From the NCBI RefSeq assembly GCF_019464535.1, contig NZ_CP080507.1:1380001-1412000 (forward strand): DNA of 32,000 bases. Reading direction: 5' to 3'. The stretch comes from Horticoccus luteus (GTDB taxonomy: Bacteria > Verrucomicrobiota > Verrucomicrobiia > Opitutales > Opitutaceae). Shown piece after piece: positions 1,091 to 26,737 of this stretch. The position numbers were made by a program, and so were the translations under genes. Positions within the stretch are counted from its first letter, which is position 1; every line of letters starts with the position of its first letter. Below the pieces are notes generated by a model. It was given only the letters and a program-made list of their open reading frames with translations. It was not told where the DNA came from and did no database searches.

Positions 1091-1192
1091 ACGTCGAGTG
1101 CCGAGGCGAAGGATGCGGAGTCCGAACGGCGGCGCACGCGGAACGCAGGAGGTGGTGACAGGCAACGTGACTCGGCGCGCTGGCGCTCCCAG

Positions 1193-1654: not shown

Positions 1655-1884
1655 GGGGGAGCGGTGTTGAGGGATGCGAAGCAAACGGAACGGAGACGAT
1701 TGAACAAGGCCTTCCGGCGTGCGCGACCGGTGCAGCGAAGTTCTCTTTGCAGCACTATAGCCACTCGCCTTCGGCTCCGCGGTGCGGGCGAGACTACGAA
1801 CCTCGGCCTCGCAGGCATTGAAAACACCGCGTGAATAGAAAAAGCCCTTGCTCGCACACATTGGCGGCATCCAGCATCCAGATA

Positions 1885-2673: not shown

Positions 2674-2677
2674 TCTC

Positions 2678-14135: not shown

Positions 14136-14510
14136 TCAGGCGCTTTGCTTGAGCTGGTCGAGCAGCGAAGAAAATTCCGGCCGCGTCTTCAACGGCTCGA
14201 GATCAGGATCCTGCCGCATCCAGTCGGCGTCGCGGTAGCCGAGCGCGATGGCGTCGCGCAGGGACTTGAGTGCCGCGGCGGGGCGCTGCGAAAGGGCGAG
14301 GCTGCACGCGAGATTGTAATGGGCGGTGGCGTTGCGCGGTTGAAGGCGCACGAGCTTGCGGTCCATTTTCAAACCGTCGGGGATGCGGCCGTTTTTCGTG
14401 TAGAGGCCGCCGAGCAGCTCCACGACCTCGGCATATTGCGCATCGCGCCGGAGAATATTTTCAAAAAATCCGATCTCAAAGTCAGGATCGTGCTTGGTCT
14501 CTTTGGCCAT
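14136..14510 (-). CDS. Small TPR-repeat protein
   Basis: From ATG 14510: ..AEVVELLGGLYTKNGRIPDGLKMDRKLVRLQPRNATAHYNLACSLALSQRPAAALKSLRDAIALGYRD.. shows TPR-like helix pairs. The start is 11 nt after the Fur-like gene stop. Confidence 0.6.
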   Translation of the reverse strand: MAKETKHDPDFEIGFFENILRRDAQYAEVVELLGGLYTKNGRIPDGLKMDRKLVRLQPRNATAHYNLACSLALSQRPAAALKSLRDAIALGYRDADWMRQDPDLEPLKTRPEFSSLLDQLKQSA

Positions 14511-14521
14511 GATAGCGGGGG

Positions 14522-15058
14522 CTAGCCGTGACGCGGACAATCGCCGGTGGTGCGGAAGCGATCGCACTGGGCGCTGACTTGCAGGCGTTGGGAGACAGGG
14601 GTCAGACCGAGTTTCGAGGAGACGGTGCTGCCATACCACGACATGAACGGCGCGCTGATTTCGAAGATCTTATCGCAATCGGTGCAGACGACTTGGGCGA
14701 CCTGGCTGTTGTTGTCGGCGATGGGGCGGTAGAATTTTTCGCCGCTGCCGATGTCGACCTCGCGCAACAGCCCGCCTTCGGTCATGATGGGCAGGGTGCG
14801 ATAGACGGTGGCGCGGGAAACGGAATCATCGATGGCGCGGGCGTGGTCGAGGAGTTGTTCGGCGGTGAAATGATCGGTGCGCGCGAGGGCCGCTTCCAGA
14901 ATGGCCATCCGCTGGTTGGTGACGCGGAGCCCCTTCTGGGTGAGGAAGACCTTAAAACGTTCACGGGCGGACGGGGAGCTCACGGGGGCAATGTCGGAAT
15001 GGGTTTTAGGGGTGTCAACCGGGAAGGCGGATGAGGGCGCTACAGGGAAAGAGCGCAC
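14522..15058 (-). CDS. Fur-family transcriptional regulator (atypical metal-site residues)
   Basis: [31 protein letters not shown]......[21 protein letters not shown] is the Fur winged-helix, and a CxxC (CTDC) is present. There is no ATG upstream of the HTH. Candidate starts are GTG 15058 (ORF track) or GTG 14983, so the start is uncertain. Confidence 0.7.
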
Positions 15059-15339
15059 GCTGTCGCAAAGCGTGGAGCGCCAAGCGTCAGGCGTGGCAAG
15101 TCACGCGAGCGTGGGCGGGCGAAGGGCGGGCGAGACGGCGAGCACGTGAACACCCTGTCAGTCACCGGAAACGAATGGAGCAGAGGCGGTTGACGGGAGC
15201 GGACGCACGCAGAGAAGGGCGAAGGCTTAGGCGGGCCGCGGCGGCGCTGGGATGCGTGAATCCCGCCCCAGGATGACGTCGTGCGCGTGGGGAACGTGCG
15301 GCGCGAAACGCGTTGCCATGCGGAGGCAGCGGCGGCGTG

Positions 15340-17586
15340 ATGCGCGGCATGATTGTCGGGGTGCATCCGCTCGCGGGATTCGACAAGCTCCTGCACTATA
15401 AGGTGCCGGAGGCGTTGCGCGCGGGCATGCAACTCGGGTTGCTGGTGCGCGTGCCGATCGGGCCGCGGGTGACGCTCGGTCTCGTGGGGCAAATGGGGGC
15501 GCCGACGGACTTTCCGGTCGAGAAGCTGAAGCCGGTCACGCAGATTGTTTATCCATTTCCTGCGCTGCCGGCGGACTTGCTGGAACTCGCGCGTTGGATG
15601 AGCCGTTACTATGCGGCGCCACTGGATGGGATCATTGAAACGATGATTCCGGGGGCGGTGCGGCACGGTGCGGCGTTGAAGCAGGAAAAGCTGCTTTCCC
15701 TCGCGAGGCGGTTGGCGCCCGATGAACTGGCGGCATTGGAAAAACGTGCGCCGCAGCAGGCGCGACTGTATCAGTTTCTCGCGCAGCAATTCAAGGCGCA
15801 GCCGAAGAGTCTGGTGTTGTCGCGGCTCGGGCAGACGGCGGCGGTGGTGAATGCGTTGATGAAACGCGGGGTGGTGCAGGAGGAAGCGCAGCGCGTGGAG
15901 CGCATTGCGTATGCCGATGGCTTCGCCCACGGCGAACTCGTGGCGGCGCAACCGCACGCGCTCAACGCCGAGCAGCAGGCGGCGGCAGAGGCGGTGGCGG
16001 CGGCGCTGGCGGAAGAGAAATTCAGTGTGACGCTGCTCCACGGCGTGACGGGCTCGGGGAAGACGGAAGTCTACCTGCGCGCGATCGATGCGGCGCTCAA
16101 GGCGGGCGGTGGCGTGGTGTTTCTCGTGCCGGAGGTGGCGCTGACGCCGCAGACGGTGGCGCGGTTGCGTTCGCGGCTGGAGGCGATCGCGCCGGGGCAT
16201 CAGTGCGTGGTGTGGCACAGTCATTTGAGCGAAGGTGAGCGGCTCGACGGCTGGTTTGCCTTGGCCACGGGAGAGGCCCGCGTGGTCGTGGGAGCGCGCT
16301 CGGCGATTTTCGCGCCGGTGCGCGATTTGCGGTTGATCGTCGTCGATGAGGAACACGAGCCCGCCTACAAGCAGGATGAAACGCCGCGCTATCACGGACG
16401 CGATGTGGCGGTGTATCGCGCGAAGTTGAACCGGGCGGTCGGCCTGCTGGGCTCGGCGACGCCGTCGTTGGAAAGTTTCGTCAATGCGCAGGCGGGCAAA
16501 TACCGCCTGCTGCGGCTGACGCAGCGGGTGGATGCGCGCAAGCTGCCCGATATCGACATCGTGGACATGCGCATTGAAGCGATGCGCCAGCGGACGCTGC
16601 CGACGCTGTCGCGGCGCCTGGTGGACGCGATGCACCGGCGGTTCGAGCGGAAGGAGCAGACGATCTTGTTCATCAACCGCCGGGGCTATTCGTCGTCGAT
16701 GCTGTGCACCGATTGCGGCCAGGTGGAAGAGTGTGAGCATTGCAGCATCACGATGACGTATCATCGGGCGGACGAAGTGTTGCGGTGCCATTTATGCGGC
16801 GCGGAGCGGCCGGCGCCGCTGGTGTGTCCCAAATGCCGTTCGCCGAAGATCCGCTGGCGTGGGCTGGGCACGCAACGGGTGGAGGAGTCTGTGCGCCGGG
16901 TGCTGCCGCGCGCGCGGATCGAGCGGATGGATACGGACACGATGGCGAAGAAGAACCGGTTTCGGGAGGTGTTGATGGAGTTTCGCGCGGGGAAAATCGA
17001 TGTGCTCGTGGGCACGCAGATGATCGGAAAGGGGCTGGATTTTCCGAACGTGACGCTGGTGGGGCTGATCGACGCAGACATCTCCATGCACATTCCGGAT
17101 TTCCGCGCGAACGAGCGGACGTTTCAGTTGCTGGTGCAAGTGGCGGGACGGGCGGGGCGGGGTGACCGGGCGGGCGAGGTGGTGGTGCAGACGTTCACAC
17201 CGCAGGCGGAGGCGATTCAATTTTCGCGGCACGCGGATTTCGAAGGCTTCGCGGAGTCGGAGTTGAAGCTGCGGCGGGATTTTCGTTATCCGCCATTCCG
17301 GCATTTGATTCACCATCTGTTTCGCGGCCAGAATCCGGAGAAGCTGCAATTTTTCGCGGAGCAATGGGCGAAGCGAGTGGAGCAGGTGTTTGGCGATCGG
17401 GTGGAGTTGCGGGGCCCGTCGCCGTCGCCGATCGAGAAGATCAAGGACCACTACCGCTGGCAGGTCTGGTATTTCACGGCGTCGGCGACAAAGGTGGTGC
17501 CGGAGTTGGTGAAGTTGCGCGCGGAGTTTGCGTGGCCGGATGACATCACGCAGGTGCTGGACGTGGACCCGGTGAATTTGTCGTAG
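15340..17586 (+). CDS. priA: Primosomal protein N' (replication restart helicase PriA)
   Basis: Walker A is LLHGVTGSGKTEVY and the DEAH-like box is VVDEEHE. The Cys-rich Zn module is CTDCGQVEECEHCSITMTYHRADEVLRCHLCGAERPAPLVCPKCRS. Motif VI is QVAGRAGRG. Start at ATG 15340, or possibly 15349. Confidence 0.9.
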   Translation: MRGMIVGVHPLAGFDKLLHYKVPEALRAGMQLGLLVRVPIGPRVTLGLVGQMGAPTDFPVEKLKPVTQIVYPFPALPADLLELARWMSRYYAAPLDGIIETMIPGAVRHGAALKQEKLLSLARRLAPDELAALEKRAPQQARLYQFLAQQFKAQPKSLVLSRLGQTAAVVNALMKRGVVQEEAQRVERIAYADGFAHGELVAAQPHALNAEQQAAAEAVAAALAEEKFSVTLLHGVTGSGKTEVYLRAIDAALKAGGGVVFLVPEVALTPQTVARLRSRLEAIAPGHQCVVWHSHLSEGERLDGWFALATGEARVVVGARSAIFAPVRDLRLIVVDEEHEPAYKQDETPRYHGRDVAVYRAKLNRAVGLLGSATPSLESFVNAQAGKYRLLRLTQRVDARKLPDIDIVDMRIEAMRQRTLPTLSRRLVDAMHRRFERKEQTILFINRRGYSSSMLCTDCGQVEECEHCSITMTYHRADEVLRCHLCGAERPAPLVCPKCRSPKIRWRGLGTQRVEESVRRVLPRARIERMDTDTMAKKNRFREVLMEFRAGKIDVLVGTQMIGKGLDFPNVTLVGLIDADISMHIPDFRANERTFQLLVQVAGRAGRGDRAGEVVVQTFTPQAEAIQFSRHADFEGFAESELKLRRDFRYPPFRHLIHHLFRGQNPEKLQFFAEQWAKRVEQVFGDRVELRGPSPSPIEKIKDHYRWQVWYFTASATKVVPELVKLRAEFAWPDDITQVLDVDPVNLS

Positions 17587-17731
17587 AGGGGAGTTTGCCG
17601 GCAGAGAGCGGACGCAGCGGAATTTGGCGCATGGTCGTGCGCAGCGGCGTGCGAGGTGAAATCAGGCGGGCCGGCGCGGGAATTTGCGTTGCGAGGTGGC
17701 CGGGGAGCGCGTTGAACGAAGGGCGTCCCGC

Positions 17732-18298
17732 ATGTTCAACCCCGAGGAACAGCCTGAGGCCGGAAGCGAGCGCCCGCGCGGTGCAGGGCGGCGCGCCTTC
17801 ACGCTGGTGGAGTTGTTGACGGTGATCGCGATCATCGCGGTGCTGGCGGGGATCACGATCGGCGCGGCGCGGGGCGTGAAGGAACGTGCGGCCCGGTCGC
17901 GGGCGAAGGGGGAACTGGCGGCGGTGTCGGTCGCGCTTGAATCCTACAAAAGGCAATATGGCGACTATCCGGAAACGAAGGATGCAGCCGCGCTGCTGCA
18001 ATGCCTGATCGGCAAACGCGGTCCGACGGGCGCGGCGATGACGGGGCGATCGATGCTCGAAACCGCGCGTTTCAGCCTGAGCGCGGACCCAACCACAGAC
18101 GTGACTGCGACGTTGCAGGATCCTTGGGCGCGCGCGTACGAGTATCATTACAAGACGGATCCGGCGGCGACGTGGCGCGCCCCGGGTTACGTGCTGTATT
18201 CCGCCGGGCCGGACGGCGCAGACGATACGCCGGCAGCGGACGGAGCACTTGATGCGACGACTGCGGCAAACGCCGATAATATTTACGCGAACCAATGA
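17732..18298 (+). CDS. gspG: GspG-like major pseudopilin (prepilin-type N-terminal methylation domain)
   Basis: RRA/FTLVELLTVIAIIAVLAGI is a class-III signal. ..RAKGELAAVSVALESYKRQYGDYPET.., LQDPWARAYEY and YVLYSAGPDGADD resemble conserved GspG blocks. The leader is about 22 aa if the start is ATG 17732. Confidence 0.75.
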   Translation: MFNPEEQPEAGSERPRGAGRRAFTLVELLTVIAIIAVLAGITIGAARGVKERAARSRAKGELAAVSVALESYKRQYGDYPETKDAAALLQCLIGKRGPTGAAMTGRSMLETARFSLSADPTTDVTATLQDPWARAYEYHYKTDPAATWRAPGYVLYSAGPDGADDTPAADGALDATTAANADNIYANQ

Positions 18299-18924
18299 GT
18301 CAGCCCGAACATCGCCGTGCCGCGTTTACGCTGATCGAATTGCTCACCGTGATCGCGATCATCGCGATTCTCGCGGGCATCCTGATTCCGACGGTGAGCG
18401 GCGTACGCGTTTCGGCAAAGAAAGCGGAGACGAAGGTGCGCTTCAGTCAATGGGCGTCGGCGATGGAGCAGTTTAAGCAGGAGTATGGTTATTATCCGGC
18501 AATCGACAGCGGCGGCACGGCCAACAAGATCAATCCGGCGCGGTTCGCGGGCGCGCTGACGGGGCGTCGACTCGACGGCACGGCGTTTGCCTCGACCACC
18601 GACCTGGATCTGGCGGGCAACAAGCGAATGATCGCGTTCTATTCGCTGACAGAACGGGAACTGAACGCAGATCGGACGGCGTTGGTGGACGCATTTGGCA
18701 ATACGGATTTTGCCGTTTACTACGACAAGGATGGCGACGGGCACATCACGACAGCGGACACGGGAGGCGCTGGACCGGTAGCGGTTGCAGGAGACGCCCA
18801 GGCCTTGTCGCCGGTCAGCACGGACGTGGATTTGACTACGACGCAGGGCGTGCGAGCGACCGTAGTATTCTATTCGGCGGGCAAGGGCGACAGTGCGAGT
18901 GACATTATTTACAGTTGGAAATGA
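18295..18924 (+). CDS. Prepilin-type N-terminal domain protein (extra G-like pseudopilin) with an EF-hand-like loop
   Basis: MSQPEHRRAA/FTLIELLTVIAIIAILAGILIP. The stretch GTGATCGCGATCATCGCG is identical at DNA level to the previous gene. Its ATG overlaps the upstream stop (ATGA at 18295-18298). Contains DKDGDGHITTAD. Confidence 0.75.
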   Translation: MSQPEHRRAAFTLIELLTVIAIIAILAGILIPTVSGVRVSAKKAETKVRFSQWASAMEQFKQEYGYYPAIDSGGTANKINPARFAGALTGRRLDGTAFASTTDLDLAGNKRMIAFYSLTERELNADRTALVDAFGNTDFAVYYDKDGDGHITTADTGGAGPVAVAGDAQALSPVSTDVDLTTTQGVRATVVFYSAGKGDSASDIIYSWK

Positions 18925-19580
18925 GGCTCCGTCGTCGAGGCTTCACATTGGTCGAATTGCTGGTGGTGATTGGCATCATTGCACTCACGGCGGGCGTCCT
19001 CGGTATGGCGTTTCGCGGGGCCAGCGCGTCGACCGGTTTACAGGCGGCGCAGAACTGTCTCGCCACCGTGCTGGCGGGGGCCCGCGGGCAGGCGGCTTTG
19101 GGGCAGGCGGAAGCGGCGGTGATCGTCGATGCCGACCCGGCGAGCGCCACGTATTTGCGGGCGGTGGGCGTGGCAACACGGCAGTCCGGAGCGACCCAAT
19201 TTGTCTTCGCGGGCGACTGGCTTGTGTTGCCAGATGGCGTCTATATCGTGCCGCCCAATTCAGCGAGCGCGGGCACCTCGTTTGAGATCGATAGTGGGGC
19301 GGGTGGCGCGTGGACGCCGGAAAGCTTTTCATCGCTGCTGGCGCCCTCGAATTCGGACGTGCGCAAGAGCGATGGCACGTCCGCCGGGATGGTGATGAGG
19401 TTGGATGCCACCATCTCGCCAGTGGGTCGGGTGACATCGGCGGGCGAGGTGCGGCTGGCAGTGGCAGCGGCGCGGCGCAGCGCAGATACAATTATTTTCG
19501 GCCACCCAGCGGCGGAGCGCGGTGTGCTGGTGAGCGCTTACGGCGCCGTGATTTTCGTCAATGATGCGAGCGCGTTTTAG
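18921..19580 (+). CDS. Minor pseudopilin, GspH/FimU-like
   Basis: MRLRRRG/FTLVELLVVIGIIALTAGVL, followed by ..LQAAQNCLATVLAGARGQAAL.., as in GspH-type proteins. There is an ATGA overlap at 18921-18924. Confidence 0.65.
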   Translation: MRLRRRGFTLVELLVVIGIIALTAGVLGMAFRGASASTGLQAAQNCLATVLAGARGQAALGQAEAAVIVDADPASATYLRAVGVATRQSGATQFVFAGDWLVLPDGVYIVPPNSASAGTSFEIDSGAGGAWTPESFSSLLAPSNSDVRKSDGTSAGMVMRLDATISPVGRVTSAGEVRLAVAAARRSADTIIFGHPAAERGVLVSAYGAVIFVNDASAF

Positions 19581-20082
19581 TCGAGGATTTACCTTGGTCG
19601 AAGTCGTGCTCGCCGTGGGCGTGTTCGCGGTGACGATCGTGGGCCTGCTGGCGTTGTTGACGCCGACGGCAAAATCGACGGCGGAAATCTCAGACTACGC
19701 GCGAGCCAGTGCGCTGGGTGATGGCATCCAAGGGGAACTGGAACGGTTGCGCGATGCAAACGTGGGCGCTGGCCGGCTCGACGCGTTGCATGACGTGGTA
19801 GCAGCAAATACACCGTTGAAGTTGGTCGCGTCGGCCGACGCGACCCGCGTATTGCGCGAGAGCGATGCCGTCGCGGCAGGATTGTCGGAGCGGGACTGGC
19901 ACTTTCTCATCGAGATTAGAGAGCAGCCCGCACCGCTCAACTATACCGCAGGCGCAGCGTTTCTGGCGCTCACCGCGACGGTGAAATGGCCGTATAAAAT
20001 TCCCAGCGGTGAGACCGACGTGACCGACGCAGACCTTACACAGGCGTCGTCGTTGATGTTAAACTTTGCGATCTCACCATGA
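19561..20082 (+). CDS. Minor pseudopilin, GspI/PilV-like
   Basis: MMRARFSRG/FTLVEVVLAVGVFAVTIVGLLAL. Small size (173 aa). Overlaps the previous gene by 20 nt. Confidence 0.6.
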   Translation: MMRARFSRGFTLVEVVLAVGVFAVTIVGLLALLTPTAKSTAEISDYARASALGDGIQGELERLRDANVGAGRLDALHDVVAANTPLKLVASADATRVLRESDAVAAGLSERDWHFLIEIREQPAPLNYTAGAAFLALTATVKWPYKIPSGETDVTDADLTQASSLMLNFAISP

Positions 20083-21044
20083 AGCAAGCGCGTTCGGCGA
20101 AGGACGGCGGTCAAGCGACGTGGGCGTTTACGCTGTTGGAATTGCTGGTGGCAATGGCAATCACGGCGGCACTGGCGGGAGTGATGTTCGTTCTCTCGAC
20201 CAACGTGTTGCGGGTGTGGAATCGGACGCAAGGCACGTTGACGACGGAGGGACAGGCGCGGTTGGCGCTCGATTTACTCACCGAGGATCTGCAGGGCGCG
20301 CTCTATCGCAATGATGGTAATGTGTGGCTGGCCGCGACCGTGCAGACTGACACCGGCGCGAGCGGGCTGTGGGATGCGACGGTGAACAATGCGAACCCGA
20401 AGGCGTCGGGAGGAGATTGGGCGAACGTTGATTTCACCGAAGCGCGTTTCGGACTGGCGGGGGTGTGGTTGCGTTTTTTCACGACGGTGACGGCAGCCGG
20501 CGCGGGCGATGCGGACATTGCGGGGCCGGCGGCGGTGAGTTACCAGATCATCCGACGAGCAAGCCCTGGCGCGGACGGAACGGAGCCGCACTACCTGCTT
20601 TACCGCAGCGAAGTGACGCCGAAGGCCACCTTTGAAACGGGTTATAATCTCGATCCGGCGACAGGAGACTATCGGACAGGGTCAGTGGTGGAGGGCGAGG
20701 CGGGCAACGTGCTCACACCGCCGATCGCACGAGTGCTGGCAGACAATGTGATCGACTTTGGGGTGCGACTTTATGCGCGCGACACGAATGGGACGCTGAC
20801 CACGATATTTCCGGCGAGCGCTGCGGCGACGTCATACTTTGCGAAATCTCCGGCGTCGGCCGTGAGCGCGGGGGATCGATTCCCCGAAGTGATCGACGTT
20901 TCCCTGCGCGTGCTCACGCCCGAAGGCGTGAGGTTGATTCAAGCGCTGGAATCTGGGCAGACCCGAGGGGATTGGTGGTCGGTGGCGCTGGCCAATTCGC
21001 GGTTGTTCACGCGGCGGGTGAAGGTGGCCGCTAAGGGGTTTTGA
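20079..21044 (+). CDS. Minor pseudopilin, GspJ/PilW-like
   Basis: ..ATWA/FTLLELLVAMAITAALAGVMF....VWNRTQGTLTTEGQARLALDLLTEDLQGAL follows the GspJ/PilW N-terminal pattern. There is an ATGA overlap at 20079-20082. Confidence 0.65.
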   Translation: MKQARSAKDGGQATWAFTLLELLVAMAITAALAGVMFVLSTNVLRVWNRTQGTLTTEGQARLALDLLTEDLQGALYRNDGNVWLAATVQTDTGASGLWDATVNNANPKASGGDWANVDFTEARFGLAGVWLRFFTTVTAAGAGDADIAGPAAVSYQIIRRASPGADGTEPHYLLYRSEVTPKATFETGYNLDPATGDYRTGSVVEGEAGNVLTPPIARVLADNVIDFGVRLYARDTNGTLTTIFPASAAATSYFAKSPASAVSAGDRFPEVIDVSLRVLTPEGVRLIQALESGQTRGDWWSVALANSRLFTRRVKVAAKGF

Positions 21045-21046
21045 AC

Positions 21047-24037
21047 ATGACGAGCGCGCTGACGTTCTCCCGACTCTATGGTGCGCGCCGACGCCAGGCG
21101 GGGTTTGCCTTGCTGCTGACGGTGACGCTCGTGGCCGCGTTGCTGGTCTTGCTCGTGAGCTTGGTGGCGTTGACGCGCGTCGAAACGAAAATTTCGGATA
21201 ACGGCGTGAAGGAGGCGCAAGCCCGGCGAAACGCGCTGATGGCGTTGAACATTGCGCTGGGCGAGTTGCAAAAATATGCCGGACCGGATCAACGCGTGAC
21301 GGGGACGGCGGACGGTTTCGGCGGGGTGGTGGGCACGCGATACTATACGGGCGTGTGGGATTCGCGCACAACAGGCACGGGGACGTTACGCTGGCTGGTC
21401 AGCGGTGGCGAGTCGGCGGCGTTCTCGCCGGCGGCTGCGCCCCTTGATGCGGTTGAGCTTGTCGGAGAACGGACGTCAGCGACCGCAGGTGAATCGGTGG
21501 TGGCCATGAAGCGGCCGATCACAGCGGTGGTCGCCGGCCAATCGAACGAAGCCGTGACCGGTGCCTACGCGTGGTGGGTGGGGGACGAAGGGGTAAAGGC
21601 CAGCCTGGCGGTGGGCGATCGCACGGAGGCAATCACCTACCCGCCATATCAATCGGGCGACGCCCGAGCACGATTGCGCCAGCAAACGGGACTGGGGGCG
21701 GCGCCGACCGATACAGCGGGTGAGACTTTAGTGGAGCCGCGCTCCGCCAGTAACGCGTCGAGCCTAGCGCGGTTGTTCGGCCGCGAGCAGATCTCTTTGT
21801 TGACGACACCGGCGACGGCACCGTTGGGACTAACCGTAACTCGGGATAACTATCACAATTGGACGGTGTTGAGTAAAGGGGTGTTGAGCGATACGGTCCG
21901 CGGTGGTTTACGGCAGGATGTGTCGTTGAACGCCAATCTGCTCGGCGAAGAGTATGCGGTGTGGGCGGATTATACGAACACGAGCGTAATGGAAGACCCG
22001 GCATCGCCTGGAACTCCGGCACCTTCACCCGGCTACGGAAGCGAACCGCTGCGTCGGCGCTATACGATAGGGCCGTTCGTCGCGTCGCAGCGACCGCGGA
22101 TTGCGCCGGTGATATCGTATTTTTATATTCTATTCGGGGTGCGCAAGCAGTCTGCGTCGGCGCCGTTTACCTTGAGTATGCGTTGGGCAGTCGCGCTATG
22201 GAATCCTTATACGAGTGCGCTCGTTCCAGAGCCGCTTTCGATCGAGGTGACTGGTTTGCCGGAGCAGGTATCGTTTTTGCACGCATCAACGCAGGCGGTG
22301 GACGCGACGGTATCCCTCCGAAACTTGTATGGCGCACCGATGAAATTGCGGTTGCCGTGGGACAGCGCGCCGACGAGCCCGGATCGCAAGTCCTGGCTTC
22401 CCGGACGCGTGTACAATTGGGTGAGTACGGGTGATCCGGCGTTCACTGCTTCGTCGACAAACCCCGGAAGATTCTATTCTCGCGATTTACCAGGCTTTGC
22501 GACGGGACTGATGACGAGCGTGGCTGGCTCGGGCGTGATCAATGGCAATTCTCCTTTGGCGGTGCGAGTCGGTGGCAAGACGACGCTCACCGTGAAGTTA
22601 TTTCGCGACAGTGACCACGCGCTCCTCGCCACTTATACCAGTCCGGAATACGACGCAGTGCCGACGACAGCAGGAACGGCGGCGTCGAACTCGACCTCGC
22701 AGCTCGGTTTTTTATTTCGACTCGCAGAGAGCTACGACACGGTGGCATCGGACCCCGGGCTGTGGCTGAAGACGACGTTGGAAGACCCGCGAGCCGAAGA
22801 CTATCCAGCGGATGGATTGCGAGCGGTGCCCAACGGAACGAATCCGGCGCTCTACGTGAATTACACGACGATCTCAGCGCCCGACCGCCTGCTTGATCGA
22901 GATATCACTTGGGGAACTTCGTTCGATGAAGACGTGCCGGTGTTTGAATTACCGCGGGCACCGCTGCTGTCGCTCGGCGCTTTGCAGCAACTCTACGTCG
23001 CGGGTGCGCGACCATTTGCGATCGGCAACTCGTGGGGACAATCGGCCCTCATCAACAATCTGCACGGCAACGAATTGTTCGACCGGTTTTTCCTCAGCGG
23101 CTTGTGCCCCGGCGTTGCGCCCGATCTGGCGGCGGGAGAACCGTTGCCGAATCAAATGCTATTACCGCTGACGGAAAAACCGGATGGCACGGCGGTATTG
23201 TTAGCGACACTGCAGGGGGCAGCCGCGCAAAGGAGCTCCGAATTTCTCCTTCAACAGGGCGCGTTTAACATCAATTCGCTAAGTGCGTCGGCGTGGCGGG
23301 CGGTGTTGCACGCAGGCCGGTTTGGCGATGGAGGAGCGTTTTCCTATCTTAATCCGAGTGCGGCGACCGGCACGGCGGGTGACGCGAGCAGGCAGACAAT
23401 CGATGCGATTGACGCGCAGTTTTTCCGGTTTCCGCAGTCCGCGCAAGAGACCTTCGCGGCCAGCGACAACTACGCGCAGTCGACCACGGGTGCCAACGGC
23501 GCCGGCGGACCGGTGATCAATACTCCTCTATTTCGGCGTGGAAAACGAGCGCTGTCGGCCACGCAAATTCGTGACCTTGCCCAGCAAGTTGTGACGCTAA
23601 ATCGACAGAAGCAGGCTGCGTCGGGTCCCTTTCGGAGCTTGGAGGAATTTCTAAATCCGAATGATCTCTTTGCAGAGGCCGACGGAACTCCCAGCAGTTT
23701 GCTGGAAAAAGCGATCCGCGATGCCGGGCTGAACGAAGCGATCGGAGAATTTAGTTCACAATGGCTCACGCAAGCCGATCTCGTGACGGCCATCGGACCG
23801 GTGTTGTCCGCCCGGAGCGACACGTTTGTGGTCCGCGCTTATGGAGAGACGCGTAATCCCGTCGGCGGGAATATTGAAGGTCGGGCATGGGCGGAGGCGG
23901 TGGTGCAACGGCTTCCCGAACCGAAGTCTCCCGCGAATCGACAGCATCCGACCGAGGCCGAATACCAAAGCCCGGGTACACTCGGCCGGCGGTTCAAAAT
24001 TTTATCATTCCGATGGCTTTCTTCCTCCGACATCTAG
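21047..24037 (+). CDS. Giant GspK/PilX-like pseudopilin-tip protein (~996 aa)
   Basis: The N-terminus RRRQAG/FALLLTVTLVAALLVLLVSLVAL has a pilin-like helix but no Glu at +5, which is a GspK hallmark. Also present are WWVGDEGVKASL (21572-21607), FNINSLSASAWRAVL (23264-23308) and SARSDTFVVRAYGE (23807-23848). Start is ATG 21047, or TTG 21041 overlapping the upstream stop. Confidence 0.6.
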   Translation: MTSALTFSRLYGARRRQAGFALLLTVTLVAALLVLLVSLVALTRVETKISDNGVKEAQARRNALMALNIALGELQKYAGPDQRVTGTADGFGGVVGTRYYTGVWDSRTTGTGTLRWLVSGGESAAFSPAAAPLDAVELVGERTSATAGESVVAMKRPITAVVAGQSNEAVTGAYAWWVGDEGVKASLAVGDRTEAITYPPYQSGDARARLRQQTGLGAAPTDTAGETLVEPRSASNASSLARLFGREQISLLTTPATAPLGLTVTRDNYHNWTVLSKGVLSDTVRGGLRQDVSLNANLLGEEYAVWADYTNTSVMEDPASPGTPAPSPGYGSEPLRRRYTIGPFVASQRPRIAPVISYFYILFGVRKQSASAPFTLSMRWAVALWNPYTSALVPEPLSIEVTGLPEQVSFLHASTQAVDATVSLRNLYGAPMKLRLPWDSAPTSPDRKSWLPGRVYNWVSTGDPAFTASSTNPGRFYSRDLPGFATGLMTSVAGSGVINGNSPLAVRVGGKTTLTVKLFRDSDHALLATYTSPEYDAVPTTAGTAASNSTSQLGFLFRLAESYDTVASDPGLWLKTTLEDPRAEDYPADGLRAVPNGTNPALYVNYTTISAPDRLLDRDITWGTSFDEDVPVFELPRAPLLSLGALQQLYVAGARPFAIGNSWGQSALINNLHGNELFDRFFLSGLCPGVAPDLAAGEPLPNQMLLPLTEKPDGTAVLLATLQGAAAQRSSEFLLQQGAFNINSLSASAWRAVLHAGRFGDGGAFSYLNPSAATGTAGDASRQTIDAIDAQFFRFPQSAQETFAASDNYAQSTTGANGAGGPVINTPLFRRGKRALSATQIRDLAQQVVTLNRQKQAASGPFRSLEEFLNPNDLFAEADGTPSSLLEKAIRDAGLNEAIGEFSSQWLTQADLVTAIGPVLSARSDTFVVRAYGETRNPVGGNIEGRAWAEAVVQRLPEPKSPANRQHPTEAEYQSPGTLGRRFKILSFRWLSSSDI

Positions 24038-24708
24038 CGTTGCGCGGCAGTCTATTTTTGGCCGTAGCGGTGGCCGCGATCGCGCAGCCGGCCCGGCCGC
24101 GCGAACTCGAGGTTCATTTTACTGTGTTTGCGCCGACGTTCGTGAGTGACCTTGCGTATCGGATCAAAACTGAACGGGCGGTGAAACTGGTGCCTTTGAC
24201 GTTCTTCCCCACGGCGCGCTCGCCGGTGTATGCGTATCGAGGACCGGCACCGTTGGAGATCGTGGATGAGAAGTCGGGTGAAGTAGTGGCGTTGGCAGAT
24301 GTGCCGCCAAATATTTCGGAGCCCTTGATCATCTTGTTTCCCCTAACTCCAGCGCCGACCAAAGGAACACGATTTCGCGTTTACGTGCACGATGACGCGA
24401 AATCCAAGCACGGACCAGGAGGCTTGGGTGTTCTGAATTTCTCGAACCTTTCGCTAGATGGGACAGTGGATCGGCAGGCGGTGCAATTCGGGAACGGATT
24501 CTACGGCCCCTATAACGTGGGAGCGGTAGCGAAGGTGATGCTGCGCACCCGATTTCGCGGACGCAGCCTGCAAACCTACGCCGACAGCATTCACCTCGGC
24601 CGCGACGGCCGGGCGCTCCTTCTACTGTTGCCGCCGTTTTATCGCGGCTCGTTGGAAGTGCAGACGCGGATATTGTTGGACGAGGTGACGCATCCGGACT
24701 CGCGTTAG
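24013..24708 (+). CDS. Hypothetical secreted protein (231 aa), last gene of the pseudopilin operon
   Basis: Signal peptide MAFFLRHLALRGSLFLAVAVAAIAQP. The composition looks beta-rich and no family is recognised. ATG 24013 overlaps the upstream gene by 25 nt. Confidence 0.55.
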   Translation: MAFFLRHLALRGSLFLAVAVAAIAQPARPRELEVHFTVFAPTFVSDLAYRIKTERAVKLVPLTFFPTARSPVYAYRGPAPLEIVDEKSGEVVALADVPPNISEPLIILFPLTPAPTKGTRFRVYVHDDAKSKHGPGGLGVLNFSNLSLDGTVDRQAVQFGNGFYGPYNVGAVAKVMLRTRFRGRSLQTYADSIHLGRDGRALLLLLPPFYRGSLEVQTRILLDEVTHPDSR

Positions 24709-24782: not shown

Positions 24783-25928
24783 CTACCCCAGCAGCACCTG
24801 CCATTGGTTTTCGCGGGCGGAGCGGGCGGCTTTCAGGGCGCCGAGGGCGACGTAGCGTTTATAATCCTGGCCGGCGATTTTCACTTTCGGTGATTCATAT
24901 CCGTCGTCGGCGAGGCGTTTTTGCAGCACGGTGTCGATGCCTTTGATCTGCGATCCGCCGCCGGTGATAATGATGTTTTGCAGCAGCGGCACGACCGAAT
25001 CCGAGGAGGCGCGTTGGATCAGCGTCGTGAGCGCAGGATAGATTTTATCGAGCAGGGCGTTGGCGGCGCGCCCGATGACGTCACCGAGTTCCAGCGTATG
25101 GCCTTTGCCGCCCATGATGACTTTGACGTCGATGGGCTTGCGGGTCGGGCCGACGTAGGCGTGCGCCTCTTTGATTTCGCGCACTTTCAAGCGGGAAAGG
25201 CCGTTGTTGGGATAGGTGCGATCGAGTTCATCGTGCATGAGGGCGTCGATCGCGTCGCCGGCGAAAGCGATGCTGACCTGATCGTCGCTCGTGGGAAAAT
25301 AGCCTTGGACGAGGCAGATGTCGGTGGTGCCGCCGCCGATGTCGATGAAGAGCGAATTGACGACCGGATCGAGGTAACCGGGCTGGCCGACGCGGGCGTC
25401 GTCGCGGTAACCGAGTGCGGCGAGAAACGGTTCCGGGATCAGGAGGATGCGGCTGAAGATGCCTTGGGCGATGCGGCGGATTTCTTCGCGGGCAGGTTCT
25501 TCGGCGTTGGCGGGCACGCCGACAACCGCGCGGATTTCAGCGGTGCCGCTCGGGTCGACGAGGGTGCGGATGTGGTGGAAGAAATCGCGGGCGGCTTCCT
25601 CGCGGGTGATGACGCCGCTTTCGAGCGGCGTGACGAGGCGGGCGTGCAATTGGTTGCGCAAAGCATCCTCGCCGAAGAGCACGCGGTGGTTGCCGGTGAT
25701 GATGCCGTCGACGATGCCTTCTTTGACGTAGCCGACGATCGAGGGGATGACTTTGCTGACAAGAATGTCGTTGGTGCCCGGAGCACCCGCGAGCACGCAC
25801 GATTTGTTGGTGCCGAGATCGAAGCCGACGAGGATCGTCTTGCCGCCGGCGCGCGAAGGCACGGTGGATGGCGTGGGGGCGGGCGTGTGGGCCGTGAGCG
25901 GGCGTTCAGGAGTGGAGACGGAGGACAT
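24783..25928 (-). CDS. MamK-family actin-like ATPase
   Basis: Actin-fold motifs are present: GFDLGTNKS (phosphate 1), VVGVPANAEE, IPEPFLAALGY, FIDIGGGTTDICLV (phosphate 2) and IIITGGGSQIKGI (adenosine). EPF, TTDIC, SIVGYVKE and the C-terminal ..ALGALKAA....QWQVL resemble MamK as I remember it more than MreB does. There is a ~30-aa Pro/Thr-rich N-terminal extension. Confidence 0.75.
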   Translation of the reverse strand: MSSVSTPERPLTAHTPAPTPSTVPSRAGGKTILVGFDLGTNKSCVLAGAPGTNDILVSKVIPSIVGYVKEGIVDGIITGNHRVLFGEDALRNQLHARLVTPLESGVITREEAARDFFHHIRTLVDPSGTAEIRAVVGVPANAEEPAREEIRRIAQGIFSRILLIPEPFLAALGYRDDARVGQPGYLDPVVNSLFIDIGGGTTDICLVQGYFPTSDDQVSIAFAGDAIDALMHDELDRTYPNNGLSRLKVREIKEAHAYVGPTRKPIDVKVIMGGKGHTLELGDVIGRAANALLDKIYPALTTLIQRASSDSVVPLLQNIIITGGGSQIKGIDTVLQKRLADDGYESPKVKIAGQDYKRYVALGALKAARSARENQWQVLLG

Positions 25929-25943
25929 AGGAATTTAAACGGG

Positions 25944-26315
25944 TTAAGAGGTCCGCGCGGCGCGTTGGCCGGCGAGCATGCTGTCGATCATGTCGGCGAT
26001 GTTAATGTCGCCGCCTACCGGACGGGCGGGTGGCGGCGGCGGAGATGAAGCGGGGACCAAAGGCTGGGAGGGAGCGGCGGGGAGGCGGGCGGCAACCAAG
26101 TCGGCGACCACGCTCGCGGTGGCGAGGCGTTCGTCTTCGGTGTGCTGCAGCGCGGCCAGTTCGTCGTCTTCACCGCCGTGTGCGTGCGCGGCGGCGATGG
26201 CCGGCGTCCATGCGGTGTGTTCGAGGCGCGCTGCTTCGCTGGCGCGTCCGAGCAGGCGGAGCATCACCATGCGCCGGTAGATCAAAATAGCATCCGCCCA
26301 CGGCGACGCGACCAT
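25944..26315 (-). CDS. Hypothetical small acidic/proline-rich protein (123 aa; 133 aa if TTG 26345 is used)
   Basis: GC-rich third positions support coding. It has an acidic patch (HGGEDDELAALQHTEDERL), a proline run (PASSPPPPPARP) and a C-terminal amphipathic segment (DINIADMIDSMLAGQ). The stop is 15 nt before the actin-like gene start. Confidence 0.5.
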   Translation of the reverse strand: MVASPWADAILIYRRMVMLRLLGRASEAARLEHTAWTPAIAAAHAHGGEDDELAALQHTEDERLATASVVADLVAARLPAAPSQPLVPASSPPPPPARPVGGDINIADMIDSMLAGQRAARTS

Positions 26316-26425
26316 CGGGCAGAGCGAAGACACAGATTCGCTCAAGATGAGGCGCTAGACCGAGCAGGCGCGGGCGGGTTCGCGATTTTCTGCGGCGCGG
26401 CGCGGGGTTTTCCGTAAGCTCTTTG

Positions 26426-26737
26426 TCAGAGCGGTCGTCGCAAAAAATAAAAAATCAACAGGGCGGCGGCGAGTCCGAGGAGGGCGAGGGCGAAATAGAG
26501 AAAGCAGCCGCGGCGGACGGTGCGGTGGACGACTTGAGGGTCGATGGTATCTTGTTCGAATGCGTCGGCGGGTTGACCGGTGGTCAAATCGACGCCGGGA
26601 GACGCGGGCGAGGAAACTTGGGCGGCGGCGTGGGCGCTGGCGGCGGCGGCGGCGATTTCGCGTTCCAAGCGGGCGAGATGTTCCTGCGCCAACTCGCGCT
26701 GGCGGAGTAGTTCGGAGAGTCGGTCGGGCGTCGGCAC
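26426..26737 (-). CDS. Hypothetical tail-anchored coiled-coil membrane protein (103 aa, GTG start)
   Basis: The N-terminus is heptad-like (LSELLRQRELAQEHLARLEREIAAAAA), followed by a Pro/Ser linker and a single C-terminal TM (CFLYFALALLGLAAALLIFYFL). Third positions are GC-rich. There is no in-frame ATG. Confidence 0.5.
   Translation of the reverse strand: MPTPDRLSELLRQRELAQEHLARLEREIAAAAASAHAAAQVSSPASPGVDLTTGQPADAFEQDTIDPQVVHRTVRRGCFLYFALALLGLAAALLIFYFLRRPL

What the first reader, a model, noticed from the sequence alone, without database searches (positions are those of the whole stretch)
17732..24708. Stand-alone G-x-H-I-J-K pseudopilin operon with no assembly machinery in the window
What the sequence shows:
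- Six consecutive plus-strand ORFs each open with a basic leader, (G/A)-F-(T/A)-L-x-E and a hydrophobic helix.
- Their sizes and N-terminal patterns follow the canonical gspG-H-I-J-K order, with one extra G-like paralogue inserted after G.
- Coupling is extreme: ATGA overlaps at 18295, 18921 and 20079, a TTGA/ATG junction at 21041-21047, a 20-nt overlap at 19561-19580 and a 25-nt overlap at 24013-24037.
- The operon is bounded by priA upstream and a convergent operon downstream.
- No GspE/PilB ATPase, GspF/PilC platform, GspC/L/M, secretin or prepilin peptidase gene is present anywhere in the 32 kb.

Inference: the fibre/tip module is genetically uncoupled from its motor and ends in two non-canonical genes (a ~996-aa K-like protein and a 231-aa secreted protein). 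This suggests a specialised pseudopilus or short pilus variant, not a textbook T2SS.
Basis: partly seen in the sequence, partly recalled or inferred. Interest (0 to 1): 0.65.

Follow-up and report, generated by a model that had tools for sequence, protein, structure and literature searches.

The report
Opitutales pseudopilin cassette with giant cap
A seven-gene operon conserved across Opitutales bacteria encodes the fibre and tip subunits of a type II secretion / type IV pilus-like filament, capped by a very large (996 aa) GspK-like subunit that is paired with a small secreted protein, while the assembly motor lies elsewhere in the genome; it is a lineage-specific variant of a well-known machine, not a new kind of system.

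Summary
Seven tightly overlapping plus-strand genes (17732-24708) lie between priA and a convergent actin-like gene. Five open with a prepilin motif that occurs nowhere else in the window. The sixth has the Glu5-less GspK-type N-terminus. No assembly gene was found in the 32 kb.

- **Subunit classes.** p1 is a real GspG homologue and p2 is G-like only at its N-terminus. p5 and p6 match GspJ and GspK best, but only through their N-termini. The H and I labels rest on position, size and weak hits. Apart from p1's Pfam T2SSG hit, no class-specific G-K model reaches its curated cut-off.
- **Conservation.** p6 belongs to an unnamed family of about 1000 aa found in 463 species genomes, nearly all Opitutales. 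The same seven-gene order recurs almost everywhere the flanks are available, with changing neighbours and no adjacent machinery.
- **p6.** The model is confident (pLDDT 90) but has no structural match. I read it as a GspK-class cap with a very large insertion and a near-invariant C-terminal strand, like the published CpaL and ComZ architecture.
- **p7.** It is a signal-peptide protein with two Ig-like domains.

Separate pilin operons and insertion-bearing K homologues are both known, so this is a new variant of a known kind. Whether the partner machine is T2SS or T4P is untested.

The parts
17587..17731 (+). 145-nt intergenic region between priA and p1; presumed promoter and leader of the operon
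   Evidence: Inference from position only. No sigma-70-like site or Rfam family was found here.
17732..18298 (+). p1: GspG-type major pseudopilin (188 aa), prepilin leader ...GRRA|FTLVELL
   Evidence: Pfam T2SSG 30.5 bits (cut-off 21) plus N_methyl. TIGR01710 GspG 54.2 bits, below its 88.85 cut-off. BLASTP against E. coli GspG gives 31% identity over 143 aligned columns, E 2e-10, including the DPW...Y.L.SAGPDG motif. hhalign against GspG: 98.4% probability.
18295..18924 (+). p2: second pilin (209 aa), G-like at the N-terminus, with its own globular domain carrying an EF-hand-like loop DKDGDGHITTAD (residues about 143-155)
   Evidence: N_methyl 28.5 bits and weak EF-hand hits at 143-155. GspG N-terminal match. 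51% identical to p1 over 61 N-terminal residues only. Family alignment A3 conserves D144, N146, D148 and G149, and p2 is the best-conserved pilin of the block. PDB profile hits cover only the pilin helix.
18921..19580 (+). p3: minor pilin in the GspH/FimU position (219 aa)
   Evidence: N_methyl 30 bits. Best NCBIfam hits are GspH (39.1 bits, cut-off 80, N-terminal 65 residues) and Verru_Chthon D (28.5 bits, cut-off 70). hhalign shows the N-terminal helix only. The class is assigned from position, size and weak best hit.
19561..20082 (+). p4: minor pilin in the GspI/PilV position (173 aa)
   Evidence: N_methyl 21.8 bits. Best NCBIfam hits are PilV (25.1 bits, cut-off 52.2), Verru_Chthon B, XpsI and GspI, all N-terminal and below cut-off. 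hhalign with E. coli templates is ambiguous: J 69%, H 43%, I 18%.
20079..21044 (+). p5: minor pilin in the GspJ/PilW position (321 aa)
   Evidence: N_methyl 18.4 bits, just below cut-off. Best NCBIfam hits are Verru_Chthon C, HpsC and GspJ, N-terminal only. hhalign best match is GspJ: 83% probability over 57 columns.
21047..24037 (+). p6: 996-aa GspK/PilX-class cap pilin. Glu5-less leader ...RRRQAG|FALLL, alpha1 helix 20-78, beta strands 83-180, a large mixed/beta-rich middle (about 181-925), and C-terminal strands 926-936, 943-959 and 981-991 ending in the near-invariant GRRFK(V/I)(V/I)SFRWLTRSDI-COOH
   Evidence: No Pfam family. hhalign of family alignment A1 against a GspK alignment: 93.4% probability, E 2.6e-7, over the N-terminal 68 columns. 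The last 300 aa are colinear with GspK 64-321 at E 0.0023 but only 12.5% probability, with FNLN-type and S-x-F motifs aligned. The N-terminus is specific for K over G/H/I/J. Only the GspK and Verru_Chthon A models hit 7 of 8 family members. AF2 model: pLDDT 90.4, pTM 0.88. No Foldseek match in PDB or BFVD and no PDB sequence match.
24013..24708 (+). p7: 231-aa protein with a Sec-type signal peptide (MAFFLRHLALRGSLFLAVAVAAIA|QP, no Cys) and two tandem Ig-like beta-sandwich domains; overlaps p6 by 25 nt
   Evidence: No Pfam or NCBIfam family. AF2 model: pLDDT 92.8. Foldseek matches the tandem Ig-like extracellular domain of PepT1/PepT2 (E 2e-5 to 3e-3; TM-score normalised to target length (TMt) up to 0.53). 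Always found directly after p6, with the reading frames overlapping in at least 20 related loci, and still paired with the K-like gene in loci L072 and L078 that lack upstream pilins. 720 representative clusters, all about 230-260 aa.

Best explanation
The block is the complete filament set of a type IV filament machine of the T2SS (pseudopilus) class: fibre subunits plus the tip-initiation complex. It is conserved as a self-contained operon across Opitutales, and the machine itself (ATPase, platform, secretin, prepilin peptidase) is encoded elsewhere.

Proposed mechanism; the steps are inferred from the established T2SS/T4P model, not shown here:
1. A prepilin peptidase encoded elsewhere cleaves the leaders of p1-p6.
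2. p4 and p5 (I- and J-position pilins) recognise the folded beta-sheet of the K-class subunit p6. That sheet is completed in cis by p6's own near-invariant C-terminal strand. Together they form the licensing trimer at the inner-membrane platform.
3. p3 (H position) joins the trimer, and the GspG-type subunits p1 and p2 then polymerise underneath.
4. p6 stays at the apex and displays its very large inserted region (about 650-750 aa by the different estimates) as a binding or gating module.
5. p7, exported by Sec and translationally coupled to p6, acts in the periplasm as a stoichiometric partner of p6: a chaperone, a tip accessory or a cargo.
For: - **Shown: five real prepilin leaders.** They lie in a row and only there.
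- **Shown: p1 is a full-length GspG homologue.** It carries the GspG C-terminal SAGPDG signature.
- **Shown: no conserved cysteine pair** in any of p1-p5. From my own knowledge this fits pseudopilins better than T4aP major pilins. p2 has a conserved EF-hand-like Ca loop.
- **Shown: T2SS-like gene order.** The order is major pilin(s), then H, I, J, K positions, and the independent best NCBIfam or hhalign hits of p3, p5 and p6 agree with that order.
- **Shown: p6 has a Glu5-less GspK-type N-terminus.** hhalign gives 93.4% against GspK, against 9% or less for G/H/I/J. GspK and Verru_Chthon A are the only NCBIfam models hit, in 7 of 8 relatives.
- **Shown: p6 has a confident pilin-like layout.** A long alpha1 helix is followed by strands, and C-terminal strands return at the end. 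The extreme C-terminus is near-invariant.
- **From the literature.** PilK-family sheets are completed by a terminal strand in cis (GspK, CpaL, with large and partly dispensable insertions) or in trans (PilC/PilY1, MshQ), and the I-J dimer recognises this (PMC13533445).
- **Shown: conservation as a unit.** 463 species genomes encode a p6 relative. Seven-gene synteny holds in nearly all loci with enough flank, and 31 of 47 full-flank loci have exactly 5 upstream prepilin motifs. Neighbours vary, and priA or the actin-like gene is never adjacent elsewhere.
- **From the literature.** Opitutales genomes carry a separate T2SS cluster and dozens of PulG-like paralogues (PMC13274419).
Against: - Apart from p1's Pfam T2SSG hit, no class-specific G-K (or Verru_Chthon) model reaches its curated cut-off; the generic prepilin-leader models do pass for p1-p4.
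- The globular domains of p2-p5 show no detectable similarity to E. coli or PDB G/H/I/J proteins.
- The p4 class is ambiguous.
- The C-terminal GspK similarity of p6 is weak (12.5% probability), and Foldseek did not recover any GspK structure.
- I could not inspect model coordinates, so packing of the terminal strand into the pilin sheet is inferred from the secondary-structure order only.
- No genome inventory was possible, so both the partner machine and whether the genome has a second H-I-J-K set are unknown.
- A 110-kDa cap is large for a periplasmic pseudopilus tip.
- The role of p7 is purely inferential.
Confidence: 0.55

Rival explanations
1. The block is the minor-pilin and tip set of a surface-exposed, possibly retractile, type IVa-like pilus. 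p6 combines the roles of PilX (cap pilin) and PilY1 (large tip adhesin) in one polypeptide, and p7 is a tip accessory. The filament would mediate adhesion, for example to polysaccharide particles, and not secretion.
For: - The best weak hit of p4 is PilV.
- Some JGI annotations of p6 relatives read 'Tfp pilus assembly protein PilX/PilV'.
- A very large apical subunit is typical of adhesive pili: PilY1, MshQ, CpaL, ComZ (PMC13533445).
- Opitutaceae isolates are reported to encode T4P parts including PilT (PMC7251102).
- Two T2SSE-family ATPases, one of them with a PilT-type Walker box, occur in a relative's locus, L078.
- The p6 middle is beta-rich, with only faint lectin or GH2 sugar-binding-domain-like Foldseek hits.
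Against: - p1 matches GspG, not a T4aP major pilin, and p1-p5 have no conserved disulfide pair.
- The gene order G-G'-H-I-J-K is the T2SS order. From my own knowledge, T4aP operons run fimU-pilVWXY1-pilE with the major pilin elsewhere.
- No PilY1/PilC domain or propeller match was found.
- The ATPases in L078 are separated from the K-like gene by nth, DUF2490 and clpB, and occur in 1 of 84 loci.
Confidence: 0.25
2. The proteins are pilin-like but do not build a dedicated filament. They would be membrane-anchored or peptidase-released periplasmic or surface proteins, like the many PulG-like paralogues of PVC bacteria, and p6 and p7 would carry an unrelated envelope function.
For: - Opitutales genomes hold dozens of PulG-like paralogues, some co-regulated with polysaccharide-utilisation loci (PMC13274419).
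- The globular domains of p2-p6 have no detectable similarity to characterised pilins.
Against: - A fixed set of one G-type pilin plus four differently sized pilins ending in a Glu5-less K-type subunit is the signature of an initiation complex plus fibre, not of isolated paralogues.
- The order and tight overlaps are strictly conserved across hundreds of species.
- The near-invariant extreme C-terminus of p6 fits the buried terminal strand of tip complexes (PMC13533445).
Confidence: 0.1

Closest known systems
T2SS pseudopilin operon gspG-H-I-J-K (E. coli K-12 gsp locus; GspI-J-K tip complex)
   Same: - The gene order runs major pseudopilin, then four minor pilins, ending in a Glu5-less cap.
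- p1 is homologous to GspG over its whole length.
- The p6 N-terminus is GspK-specific.
- The terminal beta-strand appears to be supplied in cis, as in GspK (PMC13533445).
   Different: - There are no adjacent gspC/D/E/F/L/M/O genes, either here or in 84 related loci.
- There is an extra G-like paralogue, p2.
- p3-p6 fall far below the equivalog cut-offs.
- p6 is three times the size of GspK (996 against 327 aa) and has no T2SSK Pfam hit.
- An extra secreted gene, p7, follows the K-like gene.
Verru_Chthon cassette proteins D, B, C, A (NCBIfam TIGR02596, TIGR02598, TIGR02599, TIGR02600)
   Same: - It is a Verrucomicrobia-specific cassette whose models are hit by p3 (D), p4 (B), p5 (C) and p6 (A) respectively.
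- The A model is very long (1296 positions) and its N-terminus matches p6.
- That the cassette is uncharacterised, and that its B, C and D members have prepilin-type leaders, is my recollection of the TIGRFAMs description, not a test done here.
   Different: - All scores are far below the cut-offs: A 14-32 bits against 332, C 27.5 against 256.5, D 28.5 against 70, B 23 against 51.4.
- The matches cover only the N-terminal 25-115 residues.
- This is a distinct, at best distantly related, family set found in Opitutales.
Insertion-bearing PilK homologues: Tad CpaL/TadG (~600 aa), Thermus ComZ, V. cholerae competence-pilus PilK homologue (PMC13533445)
   Same: - The architecture is an N-terminal pilin-like domain, a large middle insertion, and an extreme C-terminal beta-strand returning to complete the pilin sheet.
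- No separate PilY1-type adhesin is present.
   Different: - No sequence or fold match was found.
- p6 is larger (996 aa).
- The secondary-structure order and the weak colinearity with GspK suggest the insertion sits in the middle of the sheet, at the GspK alpha-domain position, and not just before the last strand. This is inferred, not verified on coordinates.
T4aP minor-pilin/adhesin operon fimU-pilV-pilW-pilX-pilY1-pilE, and MSHA mshD-O-P-Q
   Same: - It is a pilin-only operon separate from the motor genes.
- The H-I-J-K order is followed by a non-pilin gene.
- There is a large apical protein.
   Different: - The gene after the K-like pilin here is a small (231 aa) tandem-Ig protein, not a propeller adhesin of about 1000-1200 aa.
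- The large size resides in the K-like pilin itself.
- The fibre subunit is GspG-like and is encoded first in the operon.

Membership tests
Type IV filament pilins (class III signal peptide; Pfam N_methyl PF07963 / TIGR02532) | Short basic leader, G/A at -1, F at +1, E at +5, followed by a hydrophobic helix of about 20 residues | tested here: met
   p1-p4 pass the Pfam cut-off. p5 scores 18.4 against 21.2 bits but has the motif WA|FTLLELL. The motif is conserved in homologues, with A or G at -1. p6 lacks E5, as GspK does.
GspG major pseudopilin (PF08334 T2SSG; TIGR01710) | Globular T2SSG domain recognised above the curated threshold | tested here: inconclusive
   p1 scores 30.5 bits on Pfam T2SSG against a 21-bit cut-off (met), but 54.2 bits on the TIGR01710 equivalog against 88.85 (not met). 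Its alignment to E. coli GspG spans 143 columns (GspG residues 7-127 of 145), E 2e-10. p2 shows an N-terminal match only.
GspG major pseudopilin (PF08334 T2SSG; TIGR01710) | Encoded within or next to a gspC-O machinery cluster | tested here: not met
   No GspC, D, E, F, L, M or O homologue in the window or next to the block in related loci.
GspH (TIGR01708) | Equivalog HMM score at or above 80 bits over the globular domain | tested here: not met
   p3 scores 39.1 bits over the N-terminal 65 residues only. With the helix removed, hhalign probability is 0.1%.
GspI (TIGR01707) / PilV (TIGR02523) | Equivalog HMM score at or above the cut-off (44.35 / 52.2 bits) | tested here: not met
   p4 scores 17.6 bits on GspI and 25.1 bits on PilV, N-terminal only. 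hhalign with E. coli templates is ambiguous.
GspJ (TIGR01711) | Equivalog HMM score at or above 64.85 bits | tested here: not met
   p5 scores 17 bits. hhalign best template is GspJ, at 83% probability, but over the N-terminal 57 columns only.
GspK (NF037980; Pfam T2SSK PF03934 / PF21687) | Prepilin-like leader without Glu5 | tested here: met
   The p6 leader is ...QAG|FALLLTV. The family consensus is GFALLIT.
GspK (NF037980; Pfam T2SSK PF03934 / PF21687) | HMM recognition of the T2SSK domains (alpha-domain with N-x-N motifs plus the C-terminal pilin strands) | tested here: not met
   No Pfam hit at E<=1. NF037980 scores 13-28 bits against a 130-bit cut-off, N-terminal only. Profile-profile comparison gives 93.4% for the N-terminal 68 columns. 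The C-terminal 300 aa are colinear with GspK but at only 12.5% probability.
GspK (NF037980; Pfam T2SSK PF03934 / PF21687) | GspK fold forming the I-J-K trimer with a cis terminal strand | not testable with these tools
   The whole-chain Foldseek search found no GspK structure. No coordinates, domain-wise search or multimer modelling were available.
Verru_Chthon cassette A/B/C/D (TIGR02600/02598/02599/02596) | Subfamily HMM scores at or above the cut-offs (332.3 / 51.4 / 256.5 / 70 bits) | tested here: not met
   p6 scores 14.3 bits and its relatives up to 31.7; p4 scores 23; p5 scores 27.5; p3 scores 28.5.
T4aP PilY1/PilC tip adhesin | C-terminal beta-propeller domain (Pfam Neisseria_PilC) in a non-pilin protein encoded after pilX | tested here: not met
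   p6 and p7 have no Pfam family. p7 is a 231-aa tandem Ig-like protein. No propeller match was found for p6.

The most novel reading that the evidence does not exclude
The very large inserted region of p6 (about 650-750 aa) is a new ligand-binding module, for example for polysaccharide or secretion substrate, displayed at the apex of a GspG-type filament. p7 is a dedicated tip-bound partner or cargo. In this reading Opitutales run a hybrid filament: a T2SS-type fibre with an adhesin-type cap that merges the PilX and PilY1 roles in one pilin. That would be a tip architecture not described for any T2SS-class system, present as a core feature of a whole order of environmental polysaccharide degraders.
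Probability: 0.2. Interest if true: 0.6.

Novelty: new variant of a known kind. Interest (0 to 1): 0.4.

Why it matters
The block defines two unnamed protein families with no Pfam or NCBIfam model. One is the roughly 1000-aa K-class cap: more than 1350 database hits, with relatives in 463 species genomes. The other is its tandem-Ig partner, with 720 representative clusters. Both are fixed in a seven-gene cassette across Opitutales, an abundant order of freshwater and soil bacteria. The cassette gives a natural test case for the recently proposed rule that tip complexes are licensed by a terminal beta-strand supplied in cis or in trans (PMC13533445). Here the cap would carry one of the largest insertions seen so far. 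The cassette may also explain how these bacteria couple secretion or adhesion to their substrates. It does not overturn current understanding, because separated pilin operons and insertion-bearing K homologues are already known.

Tried and rejected
- **PDB sequence profiles.** The p6 family gave 0 hits at E<=10. The p2 and p3 families hit only pilin N-terminal helices.
- **Foldseek on the p6 model.** Against PDB and BFVD nothing reached E<0.01. The faint GH2 sugar-binding-domain, leukocidin and lectin hits have TM-scores below 0.1 and were not used.
- **hhalign of helix-less p1-p5 family profiles** against E. coli GspG/H/I/J. No signal except p1 against GspG, so the H/I/J classes could not be confirmed from the globular domains.
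- **hhalign of the p6 middle segments** (80-340 and 340-700) against GspK. Nothing.
- **Organism identification.** Looking up the window's own p6 failed; it is not on record.
- **Whole-genome inventory of gspD/E/F/O and pilB/C/Q/D.** Not possible with these tools.
- **Opitutales T2SS cluster composition.** The supplement of PMC13274419 is truncated as stored, so the listing was not available.
- **Literature.** 'Verru_Chthon cassette' returned no papers, and nothing describes this cassette in Opitutaceae.
- **Regulatory signals.** No Rfam family in the window. Promoter and terminator scans were at chance level.
- **Exhaustive profile search with the p7 family.** It returned only same-size relatives without Pfam domains, so gave no functional lead.
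- **Motif hits dismissed.** The GspE-type Walker A hit in L045 is ClpX-like by my reading of the motif, and the single T2SSF-like pattern hit in the window contains stop codons.
Full report
**1. What is in the sequence**

The ORF table and direct translation confirm seven plus-strand genes:

| Gene | Coordinates | Length |
|---|---|---|
| p1 | 17732-18298 | 188 aa |
| p2 | 18295-18924 | 209 aa |
| p3 | 18921-19580 | 219 aa |
| p4 | 19561-20082 | 173 aa |
| p5 | 20079-21044 | 321 aa |
| p6 | 21047-24037 | 996 aa |
| p7 | 24013-24708 | 231 aa |

- A strict prepilin pattern occurs five times in all six frames of the 32 kb. Each hit is at the start of one of p1-p5. Shuffled sequence gives 0.01 hits on average.
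- The sixth gene opens with ...RRRQAG|FALLLTV. From my own knowledge, the missing Glu5 is the known hallmark of GspK-class pilins.
- priA (15313-17586) lies upstream, and a minus-strand MreB/actin-like gene (24783-25928) lies downstream.
- Pfam scans of the other large ORFs show housekeeping and carbohydrate genes only.
- tblastn with the twelve E. coli K-12 Gsp proteins finds only GspG, on p1.
- No tRNA, Rfam family or above-chance promoter or terminator signal is present.

**2. Family placement of the pilins**

- **p1** is a genuine GspG homologue.
  - Pfam T2SSG scores above its gathering threshold (30.5 against 21 bits).
  - It is 31% identical to E. coli GspG over 143 aligned columns, including the DPW...Y.L.SAGPDG C-terminal signature.
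  - It stays below NCBI's equivalog cut-off (54 against 89 bits).
- **p2** resembles p1 and GspG only in the first 60 or so residues.
  - Its globular part is a family of its own, with a conserved EF-hand-like loop: DKDGDGHITTAD here, and DxNxDGxI in the family.
- **p3, p4, p5 and p6** have as best NCBIfam hits GspH, PilV/GspI, Verru_Chthon C/HpsC/GspJ, and Verru_Chthon A/GspK respectively.
  - That is the H-I-J-K order. But every hit covers only the N-terminal 25-115 residues and lies far below the curated cut-offs.
- **Family profiles built from 40-60 orthologues** gave the same picture.
  - p1 and p2 match GspG best, p5 matches GspJ (83%), p3 matches G or H, and p4 is ambiguous.
  - With the N-terminal helix removed, no globular similarity remains except for p1.
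- PDB profile searches with the p2 and p3 families hit only pilin helices.
- None of p1-p5 has a conserved cysteine pair.

The G-G'-H-I-J-K reading is therefore firmly supported for G and reasonably supported for J and K. It is positional for H and I. Apart from p1's Pfam T2SSG hit, no class-specific G-K model reaches its curated cut-off.

**3. The large sixth gene**

- **Family.** p6 has no Pfam family. It belongs to a large, length-conserved family: more than 1350 hits among the candidates scored, the listed full-length ones mostly about 950-1150 aa, named 'hypothetical' or occasionally 'PilX/PilV/PulG' by their sources.
- **N-terminus.** A profile-profile comparison of 80 family members with a 44-sequence GspK alignment gives 93.4% probability (E 2.6e-7) for the N-terminal 68 columns.
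  - This is specific. The same segment scores 9% or less against E. coli GspG/H/I/J and 39% against the single GspK sequence.
  - In 7 of 8 diverse relatives, GspK and Verru_Chthon A are the only NCBIfam models hit.
- **C-terminus.** The last 300 residues align colinearly with GspK 64-321.
  - The conserved GAFN(I/L)NS, PFRSLEEFL and RSDTF motifs fall on GspK's FNLN, HhH-region and S-x-YF motifs.
  - The statistics are weak: E 0.0023 and 12.5% probability.
- **Model.** The AlphaFold model is confident (pLDDT 90.4, pTM 0.88).
  - It shows a 59-residue alpha1 helix, a strand-rich segment (83-180), a large mixed/beta-rich middle, and three long C-terminal strands (926-936, 943-959, 981-991).
- **No structural relatives.** Foldseek finds no significant match in PDB or BFVD, and the family profile finds no PDB sequence.
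- **Extreme C-terminus.** GRRFK(V/I)(V/I)SFRWLTRSDI-COOH is almost invariant across the family.

I read p6 as a GspK-class cap pilin. Its pilin sheet appears to be split by a very large insertion of about 650-750 aa and closed by its own terminal strands. I could not check this on coordinates.

**4. The seventh gene**

- p7 has a Sec-type signal peptide and no cysteine, so it is not a lipoprotein. It has no Pfam or NCBIfam family.
- Its model (pLDDT 92.8) is two tandem beta-sandwiches.
- The best structural matches are the tandem Ig-like extracellular domain of PepT1/PepT2 (E 2e-5 to 3e-3). That is a fold resemblance with no functional implication.
- An exhaustive profile search finds 720 representative clusters, all about 230-260 aa and without known domains.

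**5. Comparative context**

- A scan of one genome per GTDB species found 463 genomes with a p6 relative.
  - Among the 80 best, all but one are labelled Opitutaceae, Opitutales, Opitutae or Verrucomicrobiota. The exception is a Rubrivivax MAG on a 3.7-kb contig, probably a binning error.
  - The closest relative is only 50-57% identical.
- tblastn of p1-p7 against the 82 loci held at that point shows the same seven genes in the same order wherever the flanks are long enough.
  - This matches the gene calls on metagenomic contigs.
  - Of 47 full-flank loci, 31 have exactly five upstream prepilin motifs.
- The neighbours differ between loci: acetyl-CoA synthetase, two-component regulators and others. 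priA and the actin-like gene are never adjacent elsewhere.
- p6 and p7 overlap in at least 20 loci. They stay paired even in divergent loci L072 and L078, which lack upstream pilins. They are therefore the tightest functional pair.
- Across 1.35 Mb of window plus loci, no GspD, F, O, C, L or M homologue was found. GspE-type ATPases occur only in L078, 6-8 kb downstream behind nth, DUF2490 and clpB.
- The stand-alone arrangement is therefore a conserved property of an autonomous cassette, not an accident of this window.

**6. Mechanism**

- The framework comes from established T2SS/T4P biology and a 2026 PNAS paper (PMC13533445).
  - A PilI-PilJ dimer recognises the PilK-family sheet once its last strand is in place.
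  - That strand comes in cis (GspK; CpaL, about 600 aa with a partly dispensable middle; ComGG) or in trans (PilC/PilY1, probably MshQ).
  - The paper notes that K homologues of systems without a tip adhesin often carry large insertions.
- p6 fits the cis, insertion-bearing class.
- My best explanation (confidence 0.55) is a T2SS-class filament set.
  - p4, p5 and p6 form the initiation trimer. p3 docks onto it, and p1 and p2 polymerise below.
  - p6 caps the filament and presents its insert. p7 is a periplasmic partner of p6.
  - The machine is encoded elsewhere.
- The T2SS class is favoured by GspG-like p1, the operon order and the lack of disulfides.
- The main rival (0.25) is a T4aP-like adhesive pilus in which p6 fuses the PilX and PilY1 roles. 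It is supported by reports of PilT and other T4P parts in Opitutaceae (PMC7251102) and by the size of the cap.
- A non-filament role is unlikely (0.1).
- I could not decide whether this is the only H-I-J-K set of the genome (a split but otherwise ordinary T2SS) or an additional specialised one.

**7. Novelty and score**

- Pilin operons separated from their motors are commonplace. From my own knowledge, examples are T4aP fimU-pilVWXY1E and the scattered Legionella lsp genes.
- Giant or insertion-bearing K-class subunits are documented (PMC13533445). A Verrucomicrobia cassette with a 1296-position 'protein A' model already exists in NCBIfam, although this block is not a member of it.
- What is new:
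  - the specific, order-wide cassette;
  - two families with no model or name;
  - the largest K-class insertion I am aware of;
  - a dedicated tandem-Ig partner.
- I file it as a new variant of a known kind, with interest 0.4.

Noticed in passing
window 24783-26737 (minus strand): The convergent downstream gene is a divergent actin-like ATPase: MreB_Mbl 64.6 bits, with weaker Actin and Salactin hits. It is preceded on the same strand by two small ORFs (25944-26345 and 26426-26737) with no Pfam family. This looks like a small actin-like cytomotive module of unknown role, and it is not linked to the pilin block in other genomes.
   Followed up: partly
window 18295-18924 (p2 residues about 143-155): There is a canonical EF-hand/dockerin-like calcium loop, DKDGDGHITTAD, inside a pilin globular domain. 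It is conserved as DxNxDGxI in 47 orthologues, and p2 is the best-conserved pilin of the cassette.
   Followed up: partly
L072, L078, L079 (related loci): A divergent subgroup (36-38% identity to p6) carries the K-like gene, with the p7-like gene directly after it in L072 and L078 (no p7-like hit was found in L079), and has no prepilin genes upstream. In L078 the upstream gene is gcvP on the other strand. So the K-like gene, and with it the K-like/p7 pair, can be separated from the rest of the cassette.
   Followed up: partly
L078 19337-21882: Two adjacent T2SSE-family ATPase genes (486 aa and 358 aa, the second with a PilT-type Walker box) lie 6-8 kb downstream of the K-like gene in one relative. 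This shows that members of this lineage carry T4P/T2SS-type ATPases.
   Followed up: partly
window 203-3892: An ECF-type sigma factor (203-1090), a PEP-CTERM protein (1831-2673) and a GT4 glycosyltransferase (2678-3892) lie in a row. This may be an exopolysaccharide/PEP-CTERM sorting neighbourhood.
   Followed up: no
window 1-32000: GC skew is positive in almost every 1-kb bin (up to +0.30) regardless of gene strand, and long spurious antisense ORFs are abundant, for example 15040-16791 opposite priA. Strong strand composition bias makes raw ORF lists unreliable here.
   Followed up: no
L073 (JAIYCN010000214.1): One p6 relative sits on a 3.7-kb contig of a MAG labelled Rubrivivax sp. (a betaproteobacterium), while the other 79 listed loci are Opitutales or Verrucomicrobiota. 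This is most likely a binning contaminant and not horizontal transfer.
   Followed up: no
window 14136-15058 (minus strand): By eye, a small TPR-like ORF (14136-14639) and a Fur-family-like regulator ORF (14522-15058) sit between the GH4 gene and priA. Neither was scanned against the family libraries.
   Followed up: no
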